This document shows positions 19,414-51,665 of a stretch of DNA of 64,000 nt, in pieces. The position numbers and the translations under genes are program-made. Location: the IMG/VR virus record IMGVR_UViG_3300044719_000028, positions 24,745 through 88,744 of that record, one strand, 5' to 3'. Position 1 is the first letter of the stretch; each line of letters begins with the position of its first letter. A model generated the notes under the pieces. It was not told the DNA's origin. It saw nothing but the letters and a program-made list of their open reading frames with translations, and made no database searches. The DNA is from a virus (taxonomy: Duplodnaviria > Caudoviricetes).

Positions 19414-21273
19414 ATGATTAACTTCCCCTCAAACCCTACTTTAAATCAAGTGTACACATTTGGTGTAAAAACTTGGAAATGGAATGGTCGCGCTTGGGAT
19501 TTGCAGACTATCAGTGATGTACAAGTGCAGCGTGCTGAGACTGCTGCCACAAACGCACAAGCATCTGCAAATGCTCTCCGGGTAGCTGATTACGCAGCGC
19601 TACGTTCACTTACAGCAAATGTGCCCGTCGTTTACGTTAGCGGGTATGCAACAACAACATCCCCATCGGGCATTGCGGGAACGTTTGTTAGGGACGACGC
19701 GGACACCACAAGTCTTGACAATGCTGCGACTGTTATTGTCGATAGTAGTGGCAGGAGGTGGAAACGGCAGTACAGTGGTGCCGTGTTGCCACAATGGTTT
19801 GGTGCCAGAGGCGACGGTGTAACCGACGATACAGCAGCGATACAAGCAGCACTGGATGCCTCCTACGCCGTGTTTCTTCCAAATGGCAGATACAAGATCA
19901 CCTCCCCTTTGATTTTCGATACAAGTGTTACTCTTACTGCTAACAAGCGAGGCGCAACAATCGTAGCTGGCAGCGGTTTTGCTGCTGGTAATATCTCCCG
20001 TACATATGTTGACAGTAACTCTGTTACGCAAACCTTGACGTGGAATGACAAGGCGGCAATGTATCTTGTCTGTCCTAATAATAGTTACTTAACAGATGTT
20101 ACCATTGACGGCGTGAGCTTTGATCTGCCTTCTGATGGCAGTATCGGTGCCATCAATGGTAAGCGCATCTGCTATTCCAATTTCTCCAATCTTTTCTGTA
20201 ACTATTCTGCCTATTTCGCTAAAGGTTACGACATGTGGGAGATTGGTTGGGAAAATATTCGTTCTCGTTTCAGTAAAGATCACTTCAACCTTGACACCGG
20301 CACGAGTAACACATTTACGAACGTTGCATGCGATACGAAGAATAGCAGTGGTGGCACAGGGTTTACGTTCAAGAATCTGAATTACTCGTTTATGTCAGGT
20401 TGTGCAGCAGACAGTCTTGATCGTTGCTACTATTTCGATAATTCCAATTTCGTTGTATCTGGTTGTGGTGCCGAGTCATTCAGCCGTATTGCGCAAGCAG
20501 TTAACGGTGCCCAAGTGACGTTCATCGGGGGTGCACTGGAGATTTGGAAGATTTCCAGCTTCACAGGAACTGCAACCCCCTATGATTTTAGTGGAGCTAA
20601 CACAAAGATCAAATTCTTCGGCACTTGGCTTGGTATTAGGAATCCCGCTTCTGCTGGCGGAAACTACGACAAGATGGCTATCACGGGTGGCGCAGATGTT
20701 GTCATGGACGGACGTGGACCGACTGAAATTGCATCTAAATGGTGGTACATCGCAGGCACTGACTCTGCATTGACAGTGAAGGATTCGTCAACTGGTGTCA
20801 CCTATTACAACCAATATGGTGCAAGTCGTAGAAGCGCAACTTCAAGCATGAAGGCGTTTGAAACCACGAAGACGATTGCTGCGGGTTCTGCGCAAGGCAT
20901 CTTCCGTATTAACAATGCGTCAGATGGGAGTTCTTACGGTGCAAACTGTTTTGGAGAAATTAAAGTTATGCTCCTCAACAGCTACAACCCTGATATTGGT
21001 TTTGTAGGCGCCCAGACATATCAGTTCGCATGCTACAGGGAGACCACAACAGCACAGAATCTGGTTAAAGTTGGTGACGCAACAGCGGTGACCAACACAG
21101 GAGGTGCCCCTCTTGGCACCATTACTGGTGTGCTTGTACGGAATGCCGATAACACGATTGATTTCCAGATTACGATTCCTTCGTCATACGGTACGACCAC
21201 TGTCACCGTTTTTGTGGAGTATATGAATAACGTTGGTGGAAATCCTGCATCTGAAGTAATTACGAGTCTGTAA
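19414..21273 (+). CDS. Tailspike 2, pectate-lyase-like beta-helix depolymerase
   Basis: WFGARGDGVTDDTAAIQAALD motif and a short N-terminal FPSNPTLNQVY...WKWNG module. Confidence 0.8.
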   Translation: MINFPSNPTLNQVYTFGVKTWKWNGRAWDLQTISDVQVQRAETAATNAQASANALRVADYAALRSLTANVPVVYVSGYATTTSPSGIAGTFVRDDADTTSLDNAATVIVDSSGRRWKRQYSGAVLPQWFGARGDGVTDDTAAIQAALDASYAVFLPNGRYKITSPLIFDTSVTLTANKRGATIVAGSGFAAGNISRTYVDSNSVTQTLTWNDKAAMYLVCPNNSYLTDVTIDGVSFDLPSDGSIGAINGKRICYSNFSNLFCNYSAYFAKGYDMWEIGWENIRSRFSKDHFNLDTGTSNTFTNVACDTKNSSGGTGFTFKNLNYSFMSGCAADSLDRCYYFDNSNFVVSGCGAESFSRIAQAVNGAQVTFIGGALEIWKISSFTGTATPYDFSGANTKIKFFGTWLGIRNPASAGGNYDKMAITGGADVVMDGRGPTEIASKWWYIAGTDSALTVKDSSTGVTYYNQYGASRRSATSSMKAFETTKTIAAGSAQGIFRINNASDGSSYGANCFGEIKVMLLNSYNPDIGFVGAQTYQFACYRETTTAQNLVKVGDATAVTNTGGAPLGTITGVLVRNADNTIDFQITIPSSYGTTTVTVFVEYMNNVGGNPASEVITSL

Positions 21274-23213: not shown

Positions 23214-23495
23214 ATGGACTACTCGTTGTTTCTCGGACCTGTACAGGCATTGTTGGGTGCTCTCTGCGCAGTGCTGTGGGCGAGTTTGACAGAGACGAAG
23301 AAGAAGGCTGAGAAGGTGGAAGCAGACCTTGCGCAGTTCAAGGTGGACGCAGCAACGAATTTCACCACTAAACATGAGATGCGTGCAGCTATTGAGTCTC
23401 TTAGCAAAGTTATCGAAGCGCAAGGCAACCGCATCGAAAGCCGTTTCGATAAAATTGAAGATCGTCTGAGCAAGATGTTGGAGCACAAGGACTGA
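23214..23495 (+). CDS. Putative holin/antiholin-like membrane protein
   Basis: One N-terminal hydrophobic helix plus a coiled coil, directly upstream of the endolysin. Confidence 0.45.
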   Translation: MDYSLFLGPVQALLGALCAVLWASLTETKKKAEKVEADLAQFKVDAATNFTTKHEMRAAIESLSKVIEAQGNRIESRFDKIEDRLSKMLEHKD

Positions 23496-23496
23496 C

Positions 23497-24030
23497 ATGG
23501 ACATCACGCTTGAACAGTTGGTAGCCATTTCTCCTTACACCAAATCTCGTGCAAGCGTATTCCTGCCTTACCTCAACGCTGCTATGAGGGAGTTTGACAT
23601 TACAACTCCACTGCGTCAAGCAGCGTTTCTTGGGCAGATATTACACGAGAGCGGGAGTTTGGTGTACACGGAAGAGATTGCATCTGGCAAGGCATACAAT
23701 GGGAGAGTTGATCTTGGTAACACTCAACCGGGAGATGGAGAACGCTTTAAAGGCAGATCGCTAATTCAGATCACAGGGCGTGTAAATTACGTCAAGGTGA
23801 TGCTTGCCCTTGGAATCGATTGTCTTGTTCATCCAGAGATGTTGGCACAGCCTGAAAACGCTTGTAGGGCATCGGCATGGTGGTGGCACGATCATAAGTT
23901 AAATGAGATTGCAGACCTAGGCACACAAGACGCTTATCGAAAAATAACCAGAACTATTAATGGCGGCTACAACGGATGGGAGGATCGTCTTGCCATCTAT
24001 AACCTAGCAAGAGAGGTGTTGGGATGTTAG
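23497..24030 (+). CDS. Endolysin, glycoside hydrolase family 19
   Basis: AAFLGQILHESG, FKGRSLIQITGRVNY and ITRTINGGYNGWEDR motifs. Confidence 0.9.
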   Translation: MDITLEQLVAISPYTKSRASVFLPYLNAAMREFDITTPLRQAAFLGQILHESGSLVYTEEIASGKAYNGRVDLGNTQPGDGERFKGRSLIQITGRVNYVKVMLALGIDCLVHPEMLAQPENACRASAWWWHDHKLNEIADLGTQDAYRKITRTINGGYNGWEDRLAIYNLAREVLGC

Positions 24031-24482
24031 AGAAGATGAAGGCTCTGATGAGCCTGTTTAAACAGGGGTCGGCTGTTGCTGATCCTGCAAAATGGAAGAA
24101 CCGGCAGATTAGCGCGACGATGCTTGCTGGCTTAATTATTGCTATTGTACAACTTGCACGAGCATTTGGGTATGAGATTCCGATTGACACTGACACGGCT
24201 ACAGCTATTGCAGGCGGGTTTATTGCTGTTTTTAACACTGTCTTCACAGTGGTCACAAGCAAGCACGTCGGACTGCCCACGAGCACCGTACGAGAAACCA
24301 AACAGGCTTTGCCAAGCGATGAACAGCCTGCCGAAGAAGAGTCCGCCACAGTGCAAGTTGAAGCCACATCTAATGATGGACGAGGAGTTATTAATACATC
24401 AGTTGATGACGACGTACGTGCTCGTGCCATTGAATGGTCAAGACAACACACATCAACAAACGTATTCACAAATGATGCTTAA
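24024..24482 (+). CDS. Two-TM lysis-associated membrane protein
   Basis: Two hydrophobic segments and an acidic tail, overlapping the endolysin stop. Confidence 0.45.
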   Translation: MLEKMKALMSLFKQGSAVADPAKWKNRQISATMLAGLIIAIVQLARAFGYEIPIDTDTATAIAGGFIAVFNTVFTVVTSKHVGLPTSTVRETKQALPSDEQPAEEESATVQVEATSNDGRGVINTSVDDDVRARAIEWSRQHTSTNVFTNDA

Positions 24483-43047: not shown

Positions 43048-43076
43048 ATTCTAAGCGGGAATTTGCCCGCTGTCAA
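43048..43076 (-). promoter_or_regulatory. Sigma70 promoter with a palindromic spacer
   Basis: TTGACA-17bp-TAGAAT, with AGCGGG-caaatt-CCCGCT filling the spacer. Confidence 0.7.
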
Positions 43077-46305: not shown

Positions 46306-46461
46306 TTAATTGATTTTCTTAATAAACTCTTCAGCGAACCCATCAATCTCCGAAAAGAGGGCTGCACCATCAAATTGCATATCACCGTCAACATCTTCAA
46401 AATAGAAATGATCTTTGTTGTCCAGAAGACGCTGTTTAAGCTGTTCAAACACTTCTTTCAT
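46306..46461 (-). CDS. Hypothetical acidic protein
   Basis: RBS ggag before MKEVFE. Confidence 0.5.
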   Translation of the reverse strand: MKEVFEQLKQRLLDNKDHFYFEDVDGDMQFDGAALFSEIDGFAEEFIKKIN

Positions 46462-46627
46462 TTGGACATCTCCCCTGCCCACACACCAAGACATGACAGC
46501 AGGGACATCACTATCAAAATAGCAAACCTGCTCGATTCCTCCCACAGCGAAATGTCAAAGCCAACATTGTAGAACGCACCCATAAGAAAGCCAAGAAGTG
46601 CTCCGAGAATAGCGAAGAGAATGGTTT

Positions 46628-46849
46628 TCATAAATTACCTTTGAAGAAAGGGCGGCGAAGAATCGGTGTTAAATTATCTTGCACGATTACAAAAATAACA
46701 AGTGCGAGAGTAAGAAGGCCCAACAACGTACCGACTAATACTGCACCAACGGATGTATCATCGTAAACAGTGTCAACGTGGTAGTGCCCAATATACATTC
46801 CAACAAATCCTGAAATCATCCACACCAATCCAATCAGAACAAAAATCAT
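46628..46849 (-). CDS. Hypothetical two-TM membrane protein
   Basis: Two hydrophobic helices. Confidence 0.55.
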   Translation of the reverse strand: MIFVLIGLVWMISGFVGMYIGHYHVDTVYDDTSVGAVLVGTLLGLLTLALVIFVIVQDNLTPILRRPFFKGNL

Positions 46850-47070
46850 TTCACCACCTCCGGGAAGTACTGCCGATAAGTCCACTTGCGCATGTCCCAC
46901 AGCGCCCTATTGTACGTACCGTCAATATCAATGTCATATGCCGCCCAATTATCAGATGCAAAAACTTCATCAATCCGCTTATTGACATACCTTGAAGCCA
47001 TCATAGTTCGTGCAACTGCGAACACAAACAGAATAGACCAAACAACGTAGAAAATATAAAAGGCTTCCAT
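46846..47070 (-). CDS. Hypothetical membrane protein
   Basis: N-terminal TM helix. Confidence 0.55.
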   Translation of the reverse strand: MEAFYIFYVVWSILFVFAVARTMMASRYVNKRIDEVFASDNWAAYDIDIDGTYNRALWDMRKWTYRQYFPEVVK

Positions 47071-47266: not shown

Positions 47267-47608
47267 TTACAGTTCCTTCCAATATTTTCGAATTACTTTG
47301 GCAATTTCAGGGAATGTCTTACCTCGGACATCATTCATATGCATGAGATTAGTGTTGTAGTAGATGTATCCGTCGTGACTGCACATGTCCGCCCAATCTT
47401 GCACCTCTTCAGGCAGTAAATCTGATGAGCCAAGGTAGCTGGATTTGAATCTCTGTTTAGCTGCAATCTCGGGGTGCTCTTGTGCGTGCAGATTGCAAAG
47501 GACTCCAAGTGCGCAGAACTTGTCACCTTTACGCAATTGCCCTTTACCTTGTTTGTACTCACCGCTCTCCAACGCAGCAGCCCACTTCCGTGCAATAGAA
47601 CGTTTCAT
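47267..47608 (-). CDS. Conserved phage hypothetical protein
   Basis: KWAAALESGEYKQGKGQL...CALGVLC motif. Confidence 0.65.
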   Translation of the reverse strand: MKRSIARKWAAALESGEYKQGKGQLRKGDKFCALGVLCNLHAQEHPEIAAKQRFKSSYLGSSDLLPEEVQDWADMCSHDGYIYYNTNLMHMNDVRGKTFPEIAKVIRKYWKEL

Positions 47609-47626
47609 GTTTTCTCCTTAAATTGA

Positions 47627-47644
47627 AAGGGGCTTTCGCCCCTT
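47627..47644 (-). terminator. Rho-independent terminator after the PEP-CTERM-like gene
   Basis: Minus strand aaggggc-gaaa-gcccctt followed by tcaattt. Confidence 0.7.
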
Positions 47645-47653
47645 GCTTACAAA

Positions 47654-48037
47654 TTACAGCGTTTCAGTGCCCTTCTGCTTCTTCCGACGAGCCAGCTTGC
47701 TCACACCTACCAGACCAAACAGACCGAAGCCGAGGCCAGCCATTGCGAAGCTAGACGAGTCATCTTCAGCCTTAGCCACTTGAGGGGCCGAGACAGGGGT
47801 TCCACAGCAATTAAGCGTTGCCACGCTTGCAGCAATGTACGGAGCGCTGACAGGAATACCGCAGCAATCACTATCTGCCACAGACGGACCCGGACGACGA
47901 TTGTCTTTAGGATCGGTAGCAGCAGTACGTGCGGATACATCGTCAGTTGCTACGGCAGATGCGGAGACGGGGATGCCTTGTGCAAATGCCGAAGCAGCAA
48001 ACATGGACAGGAGCAGAGCGGAGATAGTGTTTTTCAT
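47654..48037 (-). CDS. Exported repeat protein with a PEP-CTERM-like C-terminal anchor
   Basis: Signal peptide ending AFA|Q, three G[IT]PVSA repeats, and SSFAMAGLGFGLFGLVGV followed by a basic RRKK cluster. Confidence 0.65.
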   Translation of the reverse strand: MKNTISALLLSMFAASAFAQGIPVSASAVATDDVSARTAATDPKDNRRPGPSVADSDCCGIPVSAPYIAASVATLNCCGTPVSAPQVAKAEDDSSSFAMAGLGFGLFGLVGVSKLARRKKQKGTETL

Positions 48038-48091
48038 GTTGTTACCCTTTCTTGTGTTGTTTAGGATGTGCTCTTTGTCAAGCACAGACAT

Positions 48092-48120
48092 ATCTTACTG
48101 AACTGTTGAGTTGCTGTCAA
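48092..48120 (-). promoter_or_regulatory. Sigma70 promoter for gene 48037
   Basis: TTGACA-17bp-TAAGAT. Confidence 0.7.
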
Positions 48121-48128
48121 GCGATTAT

Positions 48129-49118
48129 TTAGCCAGTGTAATTTTCACCTTCAATCGTCTTGCGGTACTGTATCCAGCCCTTGAAGTTACCGCTCCACAG
48201 ATTGCCGTTTCGATCCACATGTGTGATTCCCTTTTCCCATGTATCAGGGCTAAGGCGAAGATTTAGACGGCCGCAGATTGACATTGGATTACCTTGTCGT
48301 TTCTGTATAGGCGTTGCCACATGCTCAAACGCAGAAGCATGCTTTTTATCACTACCAAGAAGCCTGCCATAAACTTCTAGTGACTTCTCCAGACCATAAC
48401 CATTGTTGCGATAGGAGACTGCTGCACAGCGTGCGCAAGACACTTTGATGGCTTGCTCAAGAGTGATTTCAGTGCTATACGATTCGTCAAGATAATAGTG
48501 CTGATTGTTCAAAGCCCAATCTTTGGTGATGTAAGGCAAATGATATTGCCCCGCTTTTAATTCAACCGGATTACTCTGCTCATACGAATCTTTCATACAA
48601 CGTGCAAGTTCAGCAATCGACGGATCAGCAGCCTCGTCATCTCGCAGCCAGAAAAAATTGGCAACTTCTGTAGCAGTGATGATCGTCTTCATCATCTGGA
48701 ACGGCTCTGTCAGGCGTCCTGTAATCTGCTTGTGATAGCCTGCGTCCGAGAGTGTCCGCGCATGCTCCACCGCTGTGTCTAGTGCAGCTTCCCAAACATC
48801 AATTGCACGACCTTTTACAAGGCTACCGTCCCCGCACCGGATCAACATTTCTACTGAGTGATCGTCTCCAGTATCCTGCATACCCGCCTGATTAGCACCA
48901 AATCGCACAGGACGCCCGTTAAGCTGCTCAACCATCTTAGCAAATGGAATGGCACGGCTACTTGCGGCATTGCGCGAGAACATGCGATGCGTCATTAGCT
49001 CAGAGTGGATCAGACGAGGATATTCTACTTCCCATGTCGTCAGCCGCACACCTTGCTCACTGATGCTGTCAGCAATAACACGAGCAACAATGTTAGCTTT
49101 ACCTTTTACTTCAATCAT
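48129..49118 (-). CDS. thyX: Flavin-dependent thymidylate synthase
   Basis: IHSELMTHRMFSRNAASSRAIP, a ThyX RHRxxSxxxxSxR-type motif, and HASAFEH. Confidence 0.85.
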   Translation of the reverse strand: MIEVKGKANIVARVIADSISEQGVRLTTWEVEYPRLIHSELMTHRMFSRNAASSRAIPFAKMVEQLNGRPVRFGANQAGMQDTGDDHSVEMLIRCGDGSLVKGRAIDVWEAALDTAVEHARTLSDAGYHKQITGRLTEPFQMMKTIITATEVANFFWLRDDEAADPSIAELARCMKDSYEQSNPVELKAGQYHLPYITKDWALNNQHYYLDESYSTEITLEQAIKVSCARCAAVSYRNNGYGLEKSLEVYGRLLGSDKKHASAFEHVATPIQKRQGNPMSICGRLNLRLSPDTWEKGITHVDRNGNLWSGNFKGWIQYRKTIEGENYTG

Positions 49119-49941: not shown

Positions 49942-50153
49942 TTCACATCTTCCTCGTGACACCTATAAACTTCAGTAAGATCAACAAGCTGATAACGAAT
50001 TTGATCGTCAAACCGTACAAACTCCCTACCATATCCATTGTTAGCGTTTGCCCAAGCATTCTTGGCATTACCCGGCTTGGTCCATGCACATTTGGAGTTG
50101 TAGGCAATGAATTCGTTAGTTTCTGTGTCAATAATTGCGTAGATTTTTGTCAT
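49938..50153 (-). CDS. Hypothetical protein
   Basis: 71 aa, coupled to its neighbours. Confidence 0.55.
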   Translation of the reverse strand: MTKIYAIIDTETNEFIAYNSKCAWTKPGNAKNAWANANNGYGREFVRFDDQIRYQLVDLTEVYRCHEEDVK

Positions 50154-50794
50154 TGTTTATCCTTGTAAGACTGCCATACCGTTGTTGGAGAACCCTCTTC
50201 AAAATGCCTTTCAGTGTATCCGAAGCCTTTTTCATTCAACTCAAGAATTTTATTAATTCTAAATTCTTTAGCCATTTCCATTGCTCTTTCCTCACCAAAC
50301 TTATCAATTGAAAATCGCCTACAGCGGGTCTTTCCACCTTCGTACCATGATGCTGTTGCGTATCGATTTCCTGCCCTACCGTTATCGGTTATCGAAATCC
50401 CAGCCATGCCGTGTTTGTTGTGAGAACAAATTCCACGATTCCTTTTGTTGACAATCATTGGAACACATCTGAGGTTGTCAATTTTGTTGTTACTACTGTC
50501 CCCGTCTATGTGGTCAATCTGAAAACCATTTGGGATAGTAAAGTTGTGCATCTCCCATACTATCCTATGTGCCATCACGCCCTTATATTTCTGCCCGATT
50601 TTTATATTCACTCGCCAGTAACGCTGTCGCAAGCCTACGCAAAACGAACCCGCAGGCTTGCCGTCCTTTGGTTTCTTTCTGCTTTTAGTAGGTCTGCTTG
50701 GATTCCACCTCAAACAACTTGGAGATGTTTCGTCATAGATAAAAGTCTTACTCCATTCCGAACTTTCTAACCTTACCTGTCTTAATTCCGTCAT
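50150..50794 (-). CDS. HNH homing endonuclease with an AP2-like domain
   Basis: MAHRIVWEMHN...IDHIDGDSSNNKIDNLR. Confidence 0.85.
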   Translation of the reverse strand: MTELRQVRLESSEWSKTFIYDETSPSCLRWNPSRPTKSRKKPKDGKPAGSFCVGLRQRYWRVNIKIGQKYKGVMAHRIVWEMHNFTIPNGFQIDHIDGDSSNNKIDNLRCVPMIVNKRNRGICSHNKHGMAGISITDNGRAGNRYATASWYEGGKTRCRRFSIDKFGEERAMEMAKEFRINKILELNEKGFGYTERHFEEGSPTTVWQSYKDKQ

Positions 50795-51665
50795 ACACCC
50801 TTTCCATATAATTCTTTCCTATTTGTTCATACAAATCTTGTACCTTGTAGTAGTTGTCATACGCATAGCTTCTGAACCTCCCGCTTGTAATGGATGTGCA
50901 AACTTTGGATAGTGCCATATCAAAACTCCACTTAGGGTCGATTTTCTTATCGGGGAATGCTAGCTGCGACCTCTCTGCTGCGAGAACAAGTGACTCCTCT
51001 AATACAGCTAGAAGCTTGGTGTTTTCAGGAAGCGTTTCAAATACGTCCATATCGCTCCAAACCTCTCCACCTGAAAAATATTGGTACGCAGGTTTGTCAA
51101 GGTGGGCCAAAACAAGGTGCAGATCGTCGTGCTGCCATTCGTACTTAACTTCCGCAGGATTGAAAAATTCTTCTTTCGTACGGTTCAGTTTAGGAAGTTG
51201 GTTTTGATACGTTTCTTTCTCACGTTGCTGGAAGAATTCCATGTGCTCATCGCGCAGCTTAGCACCACACACATCACGCATAAAAATGATGTCGTCCATA
51301 GTCTTTTTGAAAAACGGACTATCTTTTTTATATTTGTGACTAAGCTTCAACAAATACAACACATCCAACGAAGGCACAACAGAGCCGCCACACGAAGCGA
51401 TGTTATCCGGCTGCGACATCACAAACTCAACAAGACGCTCAGCCATACTGTCAGGCCAAGCAATCTCAACTTCTACGATGATACCGCTGCGGTCACGCAT
51501 GTAGATCGATTTGCCGCTGTTGATAGGGTAGCATACATCGATTTTGTTACGCTTCCTGAATTCCATTGCCTGTTCGTACGTGCCCACATAATCTTGATCG
51601 GCAATCTTGCGATCAGCAGGCAGTTTTACGTGATGCTGCAACGCGCAGCTACCAATCAAAATCAT
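50748..51665 (-). CDS. Nucleotidyltransferase-like protein with an unknown C-terminal domain
   Basis: N-terminal LIGSCAL...DQD fits the Pol-beta-type hG[GS]x(n)DxD motif. A third carboxylate may lie in VEVE, and LYLLKLSH follows. Confidence 0.55.
   Translation of the reverse strand: MILIGSCALQHHVKLPADRKIADQDYVGTYEQAMEFRKRNKIDVCYPINSGKSIYMRDRSGIIVEVEIAWPDSMAERLVEFVMSQPDNIASCGGSVVPSLDVLYLLKLSHKYKKDSPFFKKTMDDIIFMRDVCGAKLRDEHMEFFQQREKETYQNQLPKLNRTKEEFFNPAEVKYEWQHDDLHLVLAHLDKPAYQYFSGGEVWSDMDVFETLPENTKLLAVLEESLVLAAERSQLAFPDKKIDPKWSFDMALSKVCTSITSGRFRSYAYDNYYKVQDLYEQIGKNYMERVYDGIKTGKVRKFGME

What the first reader, a model, noticed from the sequence alone, without database searches (positions are those of the whole stretch)
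47627..48120. Self-contained moron encoding a PEP-less PEP-CTERM mimic with CCG[IT]PVSAP repeats
Seen: the gene has its own promoter (TTGACA-17-TAAGAT) and terminator. The 127-aa product has a signal peptide, then QGIPVSA, SVADSDCCGIPVSAP and SVATLNCCGTPVSAP, then EDDSSSFAMAGLGFGLFGLVGVSKLARRKK. Established: PEP-CTERM sorting signals (VPEPxS/TxAL/M...GLG...RRRK) are processed by exosortase in EPS-producing Proteobacteria. Here the hydrophobic and basic parts match but the PEP motif is absent. Inference: this is an uncleavable exosortase decoy or surface protein that remodels the EPS or floc layer (superinfection exclusion), or a repeat-core precursor of disulfide-bonded peptides. This would be unusual cargo for a lytic phage that also carries polysaccharide depolymerases.
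Basis: partly seen in the sequence, partly recalled or inferred. Interest (0 to 1): 0.75.

Follow-up and report, generated by a model that had tools for sequence, protein, structure and literature searches.

The report
Phage membrane protein with sorting-like tail
An uncultivated 89-kb phage carries a small, separately switched-on gene for an exported, floppy, membrane-anchored protein whose tail only looks like a bacterial surface-sorting tag; it defines a phage-only family of unknown function and is not a PEP-CTERM protein.

Summary
On the minus strand, 47654..48037 encodes a 127-aa protein with a cleavable signal peptide (AFA|Q), VSAS/VSAP repeats, two CCG[IT]PVSAP units, an acidic patch, a glycine-rich membrane helix and RRKK. 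It lies between a TTGACA-17-TAAGAT promoter and a GNRA-loop terminator.

The gene is real. There are 39 homologues, all from metagenomes or phage contigs, at the same position in about 90-kb relatives. dN/dS is 0.14-0.40. Promoter, a 5' leader hairpin and the terminator are conserved, the two hairpins with compensatory changes. Two complete relatives and the two nearest cultured phages lack the gene, so it is accessory (moron-like). Its GC3 equals its neighbours', so it is not recent foreign DNA.

It is not PEP-CTERM. Neither TIGR02595 nor PF07589 gives a meaningful match, and no family member has a PEP motif. The GlyGly-CTERM and WGxxGxxG-CTERM models also fail. Only the small-protein model NF041742 matches, below its cut-off. 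The tail occurs nowhere else in 5.8 billion protein clusters or 185,579 genomes.

The predicted structure is two helices joined by a disordered stretch.

Best reading (inferred): a strongly expressed, C-terminally anchored inner-membrane protein acting on the infected cell's envelope, perhaps in superinfection exclusion. The exosortase-decoy idea is untested, because the host is unknown. An earlier scan note (e1-3423426) recorded the same cassette in another genome.

The parts
48092..48120 (-). Sigma-70-type promoter: TTGACA (48115-48120), 17 nt, TAAGAT (48092-48097)
   Evidence: Found by the consensus scan. The -35 box, the 17-18 nt spacer and the -10 box are present in all 16 related loci.
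48067..48086 (-). 5' leader hairpin (TGTGCTT / AGAGCACA), starting about 6 nt after the -10 box and followed by an A/C-rich unstructured leader
   Evidence: Every one of the 17 loci folds a hairpin at this place (-5.5 to -16 kcal/mol), with different, mutually compensating stem sequences. RNAalifold on the MAFFT alignment found no consensus because the stems are out of register. There is no Rfam match.
48045..48053 (-). Ribosome-binding site AAGAAAGGG, 7 nt before the ATG at 48037
   Evidence: AAGAAAGG is conserved in the related loci.
47978..48037 (-). Signal peptide, residues 1-20, with predicted signal peptidase I cleavage after A-F-A
   Evidence: K2, A17, F18, A19 and Q20 are invariant or nearly so across 39 proteins. 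The stretch is hydrophobic (Kyte-Doolittle 2.0) and predicted helical, residues 2-16.
47750..47977 (-). Disordered periplasmic ectodomain, residues 21-96: Ala/Ser/Pro/Val/Asp-rich, VSAS/VSAP repeats, a basic KDNRRP patch, two CCG[IT]PVSAP units (47783-47866) and the acidic patch EDDSSS
   Evidence: pLDDT is below 50 with no secondary structure. The repeat motif is enriched. Repeat number varies by in-frame indels between relatives, and dN/dS is 0.23. The CC pairs are absent in some members.
47690..47749 (-). Glycine-rich transmembrane anchor, residues 97-116 (FAMAGLGFGLFGLVGVSKLA)
   Evidence: A100-L106 (AGLGFGL) is invariant in 39 proteins although the codons differ. dN/dS is 0.14, the lowest in the gene. 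Residues 106-121 are predicted helical.
47657..47689 (-). Cytoplasmic basic cluster RRKK plus a short variable tail (QKGTETL); the stop codon is at 47654-47656
   Evidence: RRKK is nearly invariant. The tail after it comes in at least six interchangeable versions across the family.
47620..47644 (-). Intrinsic-terminator-like hairpin (7 bp, GAAA loop) followed by TCAATTT, lying directly before the ribosome-binding site of the next gene
   Evidence: It is probably leaky, because no other minus-strand promoter of this consensus serves the downstream genes.

Best explanation
Shown:
- This is a genuine protein-coding accessory gene of an uncultivated clade of about 90-kb myovirus-like phages related to Pseudomonas phage vB_PsaM_M1.
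- It has a host-RNA-polymerase promoter, a leader hairpin at the 5' end of the leader, a ribosome-binding site and a hairpin terminator.
- The sequence predicts a signal-peptidase-I signal peptide, a disordered acidic Ala/Ser/Pro/Val ectodomain of about 75 residues with VSAP-type repeats, one glycine-rich transmembrane helix, and a basic stop-transfer cluster.

Inferred:
- After Sec export and signal cleavage, the protein stays in the inner membrane as a C-terminally anchored (N-out, C-in) protein whose floppy stalk reaches into the periplasm.
- The invariant AGLGFGL face of the helix, where G101, G105 and G108 fall on one side, mediates tight helix-helix packing, either with itself or with a host inner-membrane protein. 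Where CC pairs are present, they would give disulfide-linked oligomers.
- The 5' hairpin stabilises the mRNA, and the cassette gives high expression.
- The most likely role is an envelope-level function for the infected cell, such as blocking entry of a second phage (superinfection exclusion) or interfering with a host membrane complex.

It resembles a PEP-CTERM sorting signal in layout only and is not a member of that family.
For: Gene and architecture:
- ORF and motifs.
- 39 homologues share the signal peptide, repeats, acidic patch, AGLGFGL and RRKK.
- Purifying selection acts in every part and is strongest in the membrane helix; the invariant residues are encoded by varied synonymous codons.
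- AlphaFold2 predicts only two terminal helices and a disordered middle.

Expression cassette:
- Promoter, hairpin and terminator are conserved in all 17 loci (window plus 16 relatives).

Position and distribution:
- The gene sits at the same place, after the thymidylate-synthase slot and before the g113 homologue.
- The slot just downstream in relatives holds other exported proteins: small lipoproteins, an SPFH/Band 7 lipoprotein and a secreted 119-aa protein. In this window the gene is followed by small membrane proteins at 46458-47070. The region is therefore devoted to envelope-directed accessory genes.
- Accessory status: it is absent from two complete relatives, from vB_PsaM_M1 and from Limnohabitans phage DC31.

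Not lysis:
- The endolysin/holin cassette lies at 23214-24482 on the other strand.
Against: - Function is inferred from architecture and neighbourhood only. Nothing matched in PHROGs, Pfam, PADLOC or the PDB.
- As far as I recall (not checked here), the known superinfection-exclusion proteins (T4 Imm and Sp, HK97 gp15, T5 Llp, Cor) are N-terminally anchored or lipoproteins, not C-terminally anchored.
- The pattern of a very strongly conserved motif at the periplasmic edge of the helix, an acidic patch before it and a basic cluster after it is also what a cleaved sorting signal looks like.
- The hydrophobic stretch is short (16 strongly hydrophobic residues), as in sorting signals.
- Expression timing is unknown, because this phage uses sigma-70-type promoters for late genes too.
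Confidence: 0.45

Rival explanations
1. The tail is a true, new C-terminal sorting signal. A host intramembrane or membrane-bound sorting enzyme (exosortase-like, rhombosortase/rhomboid-like or unknown) cleaves at or near S-x-A-M-A|G-L-G. The ectodomain is then released into the periplasm or attached to a surface polymer or lipid.
For: - The layout is tripartite: signature motif, short glycine-rich helix, basic cluster. The signature is invariant across the 39 aligned members, while the ectodomain varies by indels.
- There are weak, consistent sub-threshold matches to sorting-signal models: NF041742 in 35 of 39 members, PVV-CTERM in 15, LPXTG anchor in 16.
- The nearest language-model clusters are small PEP-CTERM, VPDSG-CTERM and VPEID-CTERM proteins at 0.76-0.88.
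- [LFVI]-x-x-A|G-L fits the rhomboid rule of a large hydrophobic P4, a small P1 and a hydrophobic P2', followed by helix-breaking glycines (PMC2941825).
Against: - No curated sorting-signal model reaches its cut-off. TIGR02595, PF07589, TIGR03501 and NF038039 gave no hit in the phage.
- No cellular protein of any length carries this tail. A dedicated host system with matching native substrates is therefore not visible.
- The rhomboid rule is loose enough to fit several registers in this helix.
- The divergent member L058 has AGVGLVGL instead of AGLGFGL.
- The phage encodes no candidate enzyme.
Confidence: 0.2
2. One reading: an uncleavable decoy jams the host exosortase and so remodels the exopolysaccharide or floc layer.
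For: The spacing from the acidic residues to GLG equals the spacing from PEP to GLG in my recalled PEP-CTERM consensus (memory only, a lead). The tailspike at 19414-21273 shows pectate-lyase-type similarity, so the host probably has a polysaccharide coat.
Against: - The PEP-CTERM models do not match.
- No member has a proline within 15 residues of the helix.
- The host, and therefore the presence of an exosortase, is unknown.
- The closest cultured relatives infect Pseudomonas sp. and Limnohabitans; neither carries the gene.
Confidence: 0.05
3. A lysis-related membrane protein: a spanin-like periplasm-spanning tether, or an antiholin or holin modulator.
For: The architecture has a signal sequence at one end and a membrane helix at the other, with a stalk long enough to cross the periplasm. 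The CC pairs recall the intermolecular disulfides of spanins (established knowledge, not tested here).
Against: - There is no lipobox cysteine after the signal peptide.
- The gene lies 23.5 kb from the endolysin/holin cassette, on the opposite strand.
- It is absent from complete relatives.
- The CC pair is dispensable.
Confidence: 0.05
4. A ribosomally made precursor of disulfide-bonded or otherwise modified peptides, with CCG[IT]PVSAP as repeated cores.
For: The CCGxPVSAP unit is duplicated in this phage and in about a dozen relatives.
Against: - Most members have one unit and several have none.
- A Sec signal plus a membrane anchor is not a precursor-peptide layout.
- There are no modifying enzymes, proteases or transporters nearby.
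Confidence: 0.02

Closest known systems
PEP-CTERM / exosortase sorting signal (TIGR02595, PF07589)
   Same: Small exported protein with an N-terminal signal peptide and a low-complexity middle, ending in a short Gly/Leu-rich helix and an Arg/Lys cluster.
   Different: No Pro-Glu-Pro in any member. No meaningful model match. Seven further residues follow the basic cluster. The gene is carried by a phage, and the host and its exosortase status are unknown.
WGxxGxxG family protein (NF041742) and the orphan WGxxGxxG-CTERM domain (NF038039; Haft 2023, bioRxiv 10.1101/2023.06.07.544157)
   Same: Best database match: 35 of 39 members hit NF041742, aligned from the signal peptide to the helix. The helix has G-x-x-G-x-x-G spacing (G105, G108, G111). 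WGxxGxxG-CTERM likewise has no known sorting enzyme.
   Different: Scores are 22 bits against a 35-bit cut-off. The domain model NF038039 does not match. There is no tryptophan. The signature here is AMAGLGFGL.
Phage envelope-directed accessory or superinfection-exclusion genes (T4 imm and sp, T5 llp, cor, HK97 gp15), compared by function from established knowledge
   Same: A small exported or membrane protein, with its own promoter, variably present among relatives, sitting among other small membrane and lipoprotein genes.
   Different: No sequence similarity. The C-terminal anchor with a cleaved signal peptide and a disordered ectodomain is unlike those proteins. The function has not been tested.
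Rhomboid / rhombosortase substrates (GlyGly-CTERM TIGR03501; rhomboid recognition motif, PMC2941825)
   Same: N-out, C-in single-pass helix with small residues and glycines at its outer edge, and a P4/P1/P2' pattern that fits.
   Different: TIGR03501 does not match. There is no Gly-Gly. The rhomboid motif is too loose to be diagnostic.

Membership tests
PEP-CTERM (exosortase substrates) | Match to TIGR02595 at 16 bits or more | tested here: not met
   Not listed for the protein at E<=10. No hit in the whole phage. Not among the families matched by any of the 39 members.
PEP-CTERM (exosortase substrates) | Match to PF07589 at 20.7 bits or more | tested here: not met
   No hit. One of 39 members hit at E 7.7, which is noise.
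PEP-CTERM (exosortase substrates) | Pro-Glu-Pro signature just before the helix | tested here: not met
   The sequence before the helix is [ED][DE]xSxSxAM in all members, and the nearest proline is about 15 residues upstream.
PEP-CTERM (exosortase substrates) | N-terminal signal peptide, and a hydrophobic helix plus basic cluster at the C-terminus | tested here: met
   In this phage the basic cluster is followed by 7 more residues.
PEP-CTERM (exosortase substrates) | Organism encodes an exosortase (XrtA/EpsH) and multiple PEP-CTERM paralogues | not testable with these tools
   The host is unknown. The phage has no protein with more than three or so predicted helices apart from spurious frames.
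WGxxGxxG family / WGxxGxxG-CTERM | NF041742 at 35 bits or more, or NF038039 at 24 bits or more | tested here: not met
   NF041742 scores 22.3 bits, E 1.5e-4; 35 of 39 members match it, best E 1e-5, with the window's protein well below the cut-off. NF038039 gives no hit.
WGxxGxxG family / WGxxGxxG-CTERM | W-G-x-x-G-x-x-G motif at the start of the helix | tested here: not met
   G-x-x-G-x-x-G is present (G105, G108, G111), but no tryptophan is present in any member.
GlyGly-CTERM (rhombosortase substrates) | TIGR03501 match and a Gly-Gly signature | tested here: not met
   No hit, and there is no GG in the tail.
Moron (autonomous accessory transcription unit in a phage genome) | Own promoter and own terminator flanking a gene not needed for the core phage cycle | tested here: met
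   Promoter and terminator are conserved. The gene is absent from two complete relatives and two cultured relatives. The terminator is probably leaky.
Moron (autonomous accessory transcription unit in a phage genome) | Base composition different from the flanks, indicating foreign origin | tested here: not met
   Total GC is 0.55 against 0.41-0.48 for neighbouring genes (sliding windows 0.54 against about 0.43). GC3 is 0.48, the same as the neighbours' 0.44-0.51. The excess sits at codon positions 1 and 2, so it comes from amino-acid composition.
Spanin (unimolecular type) | Lipoprotein signal with a lipobox cysteine, a C-terminal membrane helix, and a location in the lysis cassette | tested here: not met
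   The signal is of the signal-peptidase-I type (AFA|Q) with no conserved cysteine. The lysis cassette is at 23214-24482.

The most novel reading that the evidence does not exclude
The conserved [ED]DxSxSxAMAGLGFGL...RRKK tail is a previously unrecognised C-terminal sorting or cleavage signal carried only by phages. A host intramembrane enzyme (exosortase-, rhombosortase- or rhomboid-type) reads it. The phage would thereby plant or release a disordered stalk in the envelope of the infected cell. The stalk is rich in Ser flanked by Ala and Pro, the kind of disordered, Ala/Pro-rich region that general PglL-type O-glycosylation targets, with Ser flanked by Ala (PMC8423747). It could therefore be a glycan acceptor or sink that changes the cell surface seen by other phages.
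Probability: 0.15. Interest if true: 0.75.

Novelty: new variant of a known kind. Interest (0 to 1): 0.4.

Why it matters
Small exported phage proteins are a main way in which phages rewire the host envelope, for example by excluding rivals or masking receptors, and most of them are unannotated. This family is phage-only. It is strongly constrained, apparently built for high expression, and common in one clade of environmental phages, so it is a tractable candidate for a new envelope-acting function.

If the tail proved to be a processed sorting signal, it would be (to my knowledge) the first such signal known only from a virus. It would also give a handle on orphan sorting or rhomboid enzymes. 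If it is just a membrane anchor, the finding is a routine new family of hypothetical phage membrane proteins.

Tried and rejected
Family and structure libraries:
- PEP-CTERM, GlyGly-CTERM and WGxxGxxG-CTERM models: no match.
- Pfam, PHROGs, PADLOC, the PDB profile search and Rfam: nothing useful.

Sequence searches for relatives:
- GenBank phages by DNA and by protein: no match.
- Profile search of vB_PsaM_M1 and Limnohabitans phage DC31: no copy.
- Tail-only searches among longer and similar-length proteins: only the family itself.
- Exhaustive phmmer over 1.84 billion cluster representatives: 5 clusters, all small proteins of the same kind.
- Scan of 185,579 genomes: no relative.
- Metagenome scan: one more phage-context copy.

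Structure:
- The AlphaFold2 model has no fold to search with.

Host identification failed:
- There are no tRNAs in the window.
- The tailspikes have no informative relatives in cultured phages or genomes.
- The IMG sample numbers appear in no paper.

Other:
- RNAalifold on the leader alignment gave no structure because the stems are out of register. Per-sequence folds were used instead.
- The weak 'Cor' hits of neighbouring lipoproteins cover only the lipoprotein signal region and were not taken as evidence of function.

Full report
**1. What is there**

The minus strand of 47654..48037 encodes a 127-aa protein. Its parts, in order:
- a typical Sec signal peptide ending A-F-A|Q;
- a stretch of about 75 residues rich in Ala, Ser, Pro, Val and Asp, holding VSAS/VSAP units and a basic KDNRRP patch;
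- two copies of CCG[IT]PVSAP;
- the acidic run EDDSSS;
- a glycine-rich hydrophobic stretch (FAMAGLGFGLFGLVGV);
- SKLA-RRKK and seven more residues.

The 145-aa reading listed by the ORF finder starts directly at the -10 box. It is not used by any relative.

Such a match is not significant by itself: 5 sites were found against 5.0 expected. The 49-nt stretch, which includes a second small stem, folds at -15.3 kcal/mol, z -2.5. All features in the finding are therefore present. The only omission is that the basic cluster is not the very end of the protein.

**2. It is a real, constrained gene in a conserved expression cassette**

A word-indexed search of 5.8 billion protein clusters found 39 homologues at 42-79% identity. 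None is named, and many lie on contigs of 87-99 kb. An exhaustive phmmer search over 1.84 billion representatives added only two more distant small proteins of the same design.

IMG/VR holds 24 loci. In them the gene sits at the same place: after the thymidylate-synthase slot and usually before a homologue of the 113-aa gene at 47267-47608.

Seventeen non-redundant copies were aligned codon by codon.
- dN/dS is 0.40 for the signal peptide, 0.23 for the ectodomain and 0.14 for the membrane helix.
- The invariant AGLGFGL is written with different synonymous codons in different phages. The protein is therefore under selection, and the helix most of all.
- The ectodomain changes mainly by in-frame gain and loss of repeat units.

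Upstream, all 16 relatives keep TTGAC[AT], a 17-18 nt spacer and a -10 box. About 6 nt later comes a hairpin whose stems differ but stay complementary (GTGCT/AGCAC, GCAC/GTGC, GCGCTG/CAGCGC, ACGCTC/GGGCGT). An A/C-rich leader and AAGAAAGG follow. Downstream, all keep a GC-rich hairpin with a GAAA, TTCG or TTTC loop and a T-rich tail. Three of its 8 pairs show compensatory changes.

This is good comparative evidence for a promoter, a 5' stabilising stem-loop and a terminator. Rfam has nothing here.

**3. How autonomous is it?**

The genome has 27 strong sigma-70-type promoters on both strands, including some before late genes. The promoter type therefore does not fix the time of expression. On the minus strand the next promoter of this consensus downstream of 48120 is at 43076. 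The genes from 47608 down to the primase must then be read from 48120 or further upstream. So the terminator is probably an attenuator that gives an excess of the short mRNA.

The gene is accessory.
- Two complete relatives lack it: one of 90,390 bp with terminal repeats and one of 83,454 bp, both with capsid identity of about 72%.
- The closest cultured phage, Pseudomonas phage vB_PsaM_M1, lacks it too (capsid identity 64%).
- So does Limnohabitans phage DC31.

The raised GC (0.54 against about 0.43) lies in codon positions 1 and 2. GC3 is 0.48, the same as in the neighbours. There is therefore no sign of recent foreign origin. 'Moron-like accessory cassette' is fair; 'recent import' is not.

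**4. Is it PEP-CTERM or another known sorting signal?**

No.
- TIGR02595 gives no hit for the protein, for the whole phage, or for any of the 39 members.
- PF07589 gives no hit for the protein or the phage, and one member hits at E 7.7.
- No member has PEP or any proline near the helix.
- GlyGly-CTERM (TIGR03501) and the WGxxGxxG-CTERM domain (NF038039) do not match.

The only recurrent match is NF041742, 'WGxxGxxG family protein'. It scores 22 bits against a cut-off of 35 and appears in 35 of 39 members. Weaker hits go to PVV-CTERM, the LPXTG anchor and MYXO-CTERM. These hits reflect the shared design: signal peptide, low-complexity middle, Gly-periodic helix and basic cluster. Haft describes WGxxGxxG-CTERM as a possible orphan sorting signal with no known enzyme (bioRxiv 10.1101/2023.06.07.544157).

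Language-model neighbours of the whole protein and of its tail are small PEP-CTERM, VPDSG-CTERM and VPEID-CTERM proteins. Their scores are 0.76-0.88, which the tool says shuffled sequences often reach.

The tail is also not copied from cellular proteins.
- A tail-only search among longer proteins found nothing.
- The same search among similar-length proteins found only the family.
- A scan of 185,579 genomes found no relative.

**5. Structure and topology**

AlphaFold2, run with the family alignment, gives helices at residues 2-16 and 106-121 and nothing between them (mean pLDDT 50.6). No PDB relative exists.

From the established positive-inside rule and the -3/-1 rule, the mature protein should be N-out, C-in. 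Its disordered stalk of about 75 residues would lie in the periplasm, and RRKK in the cytoplasm.

In the helix, G101, G105 and G108 fall on one face. A GxxxG-type glycine face of this kind usually mediates close helix packing (established knowledge; an inference here).

Cysteines in the mature protein come only as adjacent pairs, one or two per protein. However, four lineages have no CC pair (P0040/L061, P0041, P0042 and the L058 copy). Disulfide chemistry is therefore not the core function, which also weakens the peptide-precursor idea. The divergent L058 copy has VSGPP repeats and an AGVGLVGLIGLG helix. The family constants are thus:
- the signal peptide;
- VS[AG]P-type repeats;
- an acidic patch;
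- a Gly-periodic helix;
- a basic cluster.

**6. Context**

The lysis cassette (membrane protein, endolysin, holin-like protein) is at 23214-24482 on the other strand, so a lysis role is unlikely.

The gene lies among small genes of unknown function, several of them membrane proteins (46458-47070). In relatives the position just downstream is filled by a changing set of exported proteins:
- lipoproteins of 74-79 aa;
- an SPFH/Band 7 lipoprotein;
- a secreted 119-aa protein;
- a TPR/DUF2076 protein.

This marks the region as a hotspot for envelope-directed accessory genes. It is the main, indirect support for an envelope-level role such as superinfection exclusion. The phage encodes no polytopic membrane enzyme, so any processing would need a host enzyme.

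**7. Host**

The host is not identified. The window has no tRNAs. The tailspikes have no informative relatives. Whether the host has an exosortase cannot be told.

**8. Verdict**

- The cassette and the sorting-signal-like layout are real and conserved.
- The PEP-CTERM, exosortase-decoy and peptide-precursor interpretations are not supported by any test that could be run.
- The best-supported reading is a strongly expressed, C-terminally anchored inner-membrane protein with a disordered periplasmic stalk, acting on the infected cell's envelope. I put this at about 0.45.
- The main rival is a true, new, host-processed sorting or cleavage signal, at about 0.2. The fit to the rhomboid P4/P1/P2' rule (PMC2941825) and the resemblance of the VSAP stalk to PglL-type O-glycosylation targets (PMC8423747) are leads only.
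I confirmed that such copies exist (for example the 112-aa copy in L014).

Noticed in passing
L005:4777-5001, L006:4814-5053, L009:4741-5622, L017:4398-4757, L007:4438-5424, L014:4746-5042: In related phages the slot just downstream of the small gene (or of its g113 neighbour) is a hotspot. It is filled by different exported proteins: lipoproteins of 74-79 aa, an SPFH/Band 7 lipoprotein, a secreted 119-aa protein, a TPR+DUF2076 protein and a secreted Ala/Val/Pro-rich 98-aa protein.
   Followed up: partly
window 47267-47608 (-): A 113-aa gene (phrog_18067, function unknown) with a conserved C-x-L-G-V-L-C-N-L-H motif follows the small gene in most relatives, including the most divergent ones. 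It may be a functional partner.
   Followed up: no
window 48129-49118 (-) and L005:3273-3920, L006:2832-3530: The slot upstream alternates between a 329-aa ThyX-like thymidylate synthase (about 50% identical to those of Erwinia, Salmonella and Vibrio ICP1 phages), a canonical-looking ThyX of about 215 aa, and an unrelated 232-aa protein.
   Followed up: no
window 47657-47677 (-) and the family alignment A1: The cytoplasmic end after RRKK comes in at least six interchangeable versions (QK, QKGTETL, ADKKPGL, AVKEPGL, SKSTESI, SKKSEGSGIA). Their distribution does not follow the rest of the protein, which suggests recombination within the gene.
   Followed up: no
whole genome (G000), for example window 59058, 43076, 41626, 37376 (-) and 7928, 24497 (+): There are 27 near-consensus TTGACA-17-TAnnnT promoters on both strands, some followed by strong 5' hairpins. 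The phage seems to rely on host RNA polymerase throughout.
   Followed up: partly
window 23214-24482 (+): Lysis cassette at the end of the late block: a 93-aa protein with an N-terminal membrane helix and a coiled coil, an endolysin (phrog_181) and a two-helix holin-like protein (weak phrog_962 hit).
   Followed up: partly
L058:1477-1806 (-): A divergent family member (109 aa) has VSGPP repeats and an AGVGLVGLIGLG helix in the same genomic position. It is useful for defining which features are essential.
   Followed up: partly
window 50150-50794 (-): An HNH endonuclease with a sub-threshold AP2-domain match overlaps the 3' end of the DUF7275/DUF7277 gene at 50748-51665.
   Followed up: no
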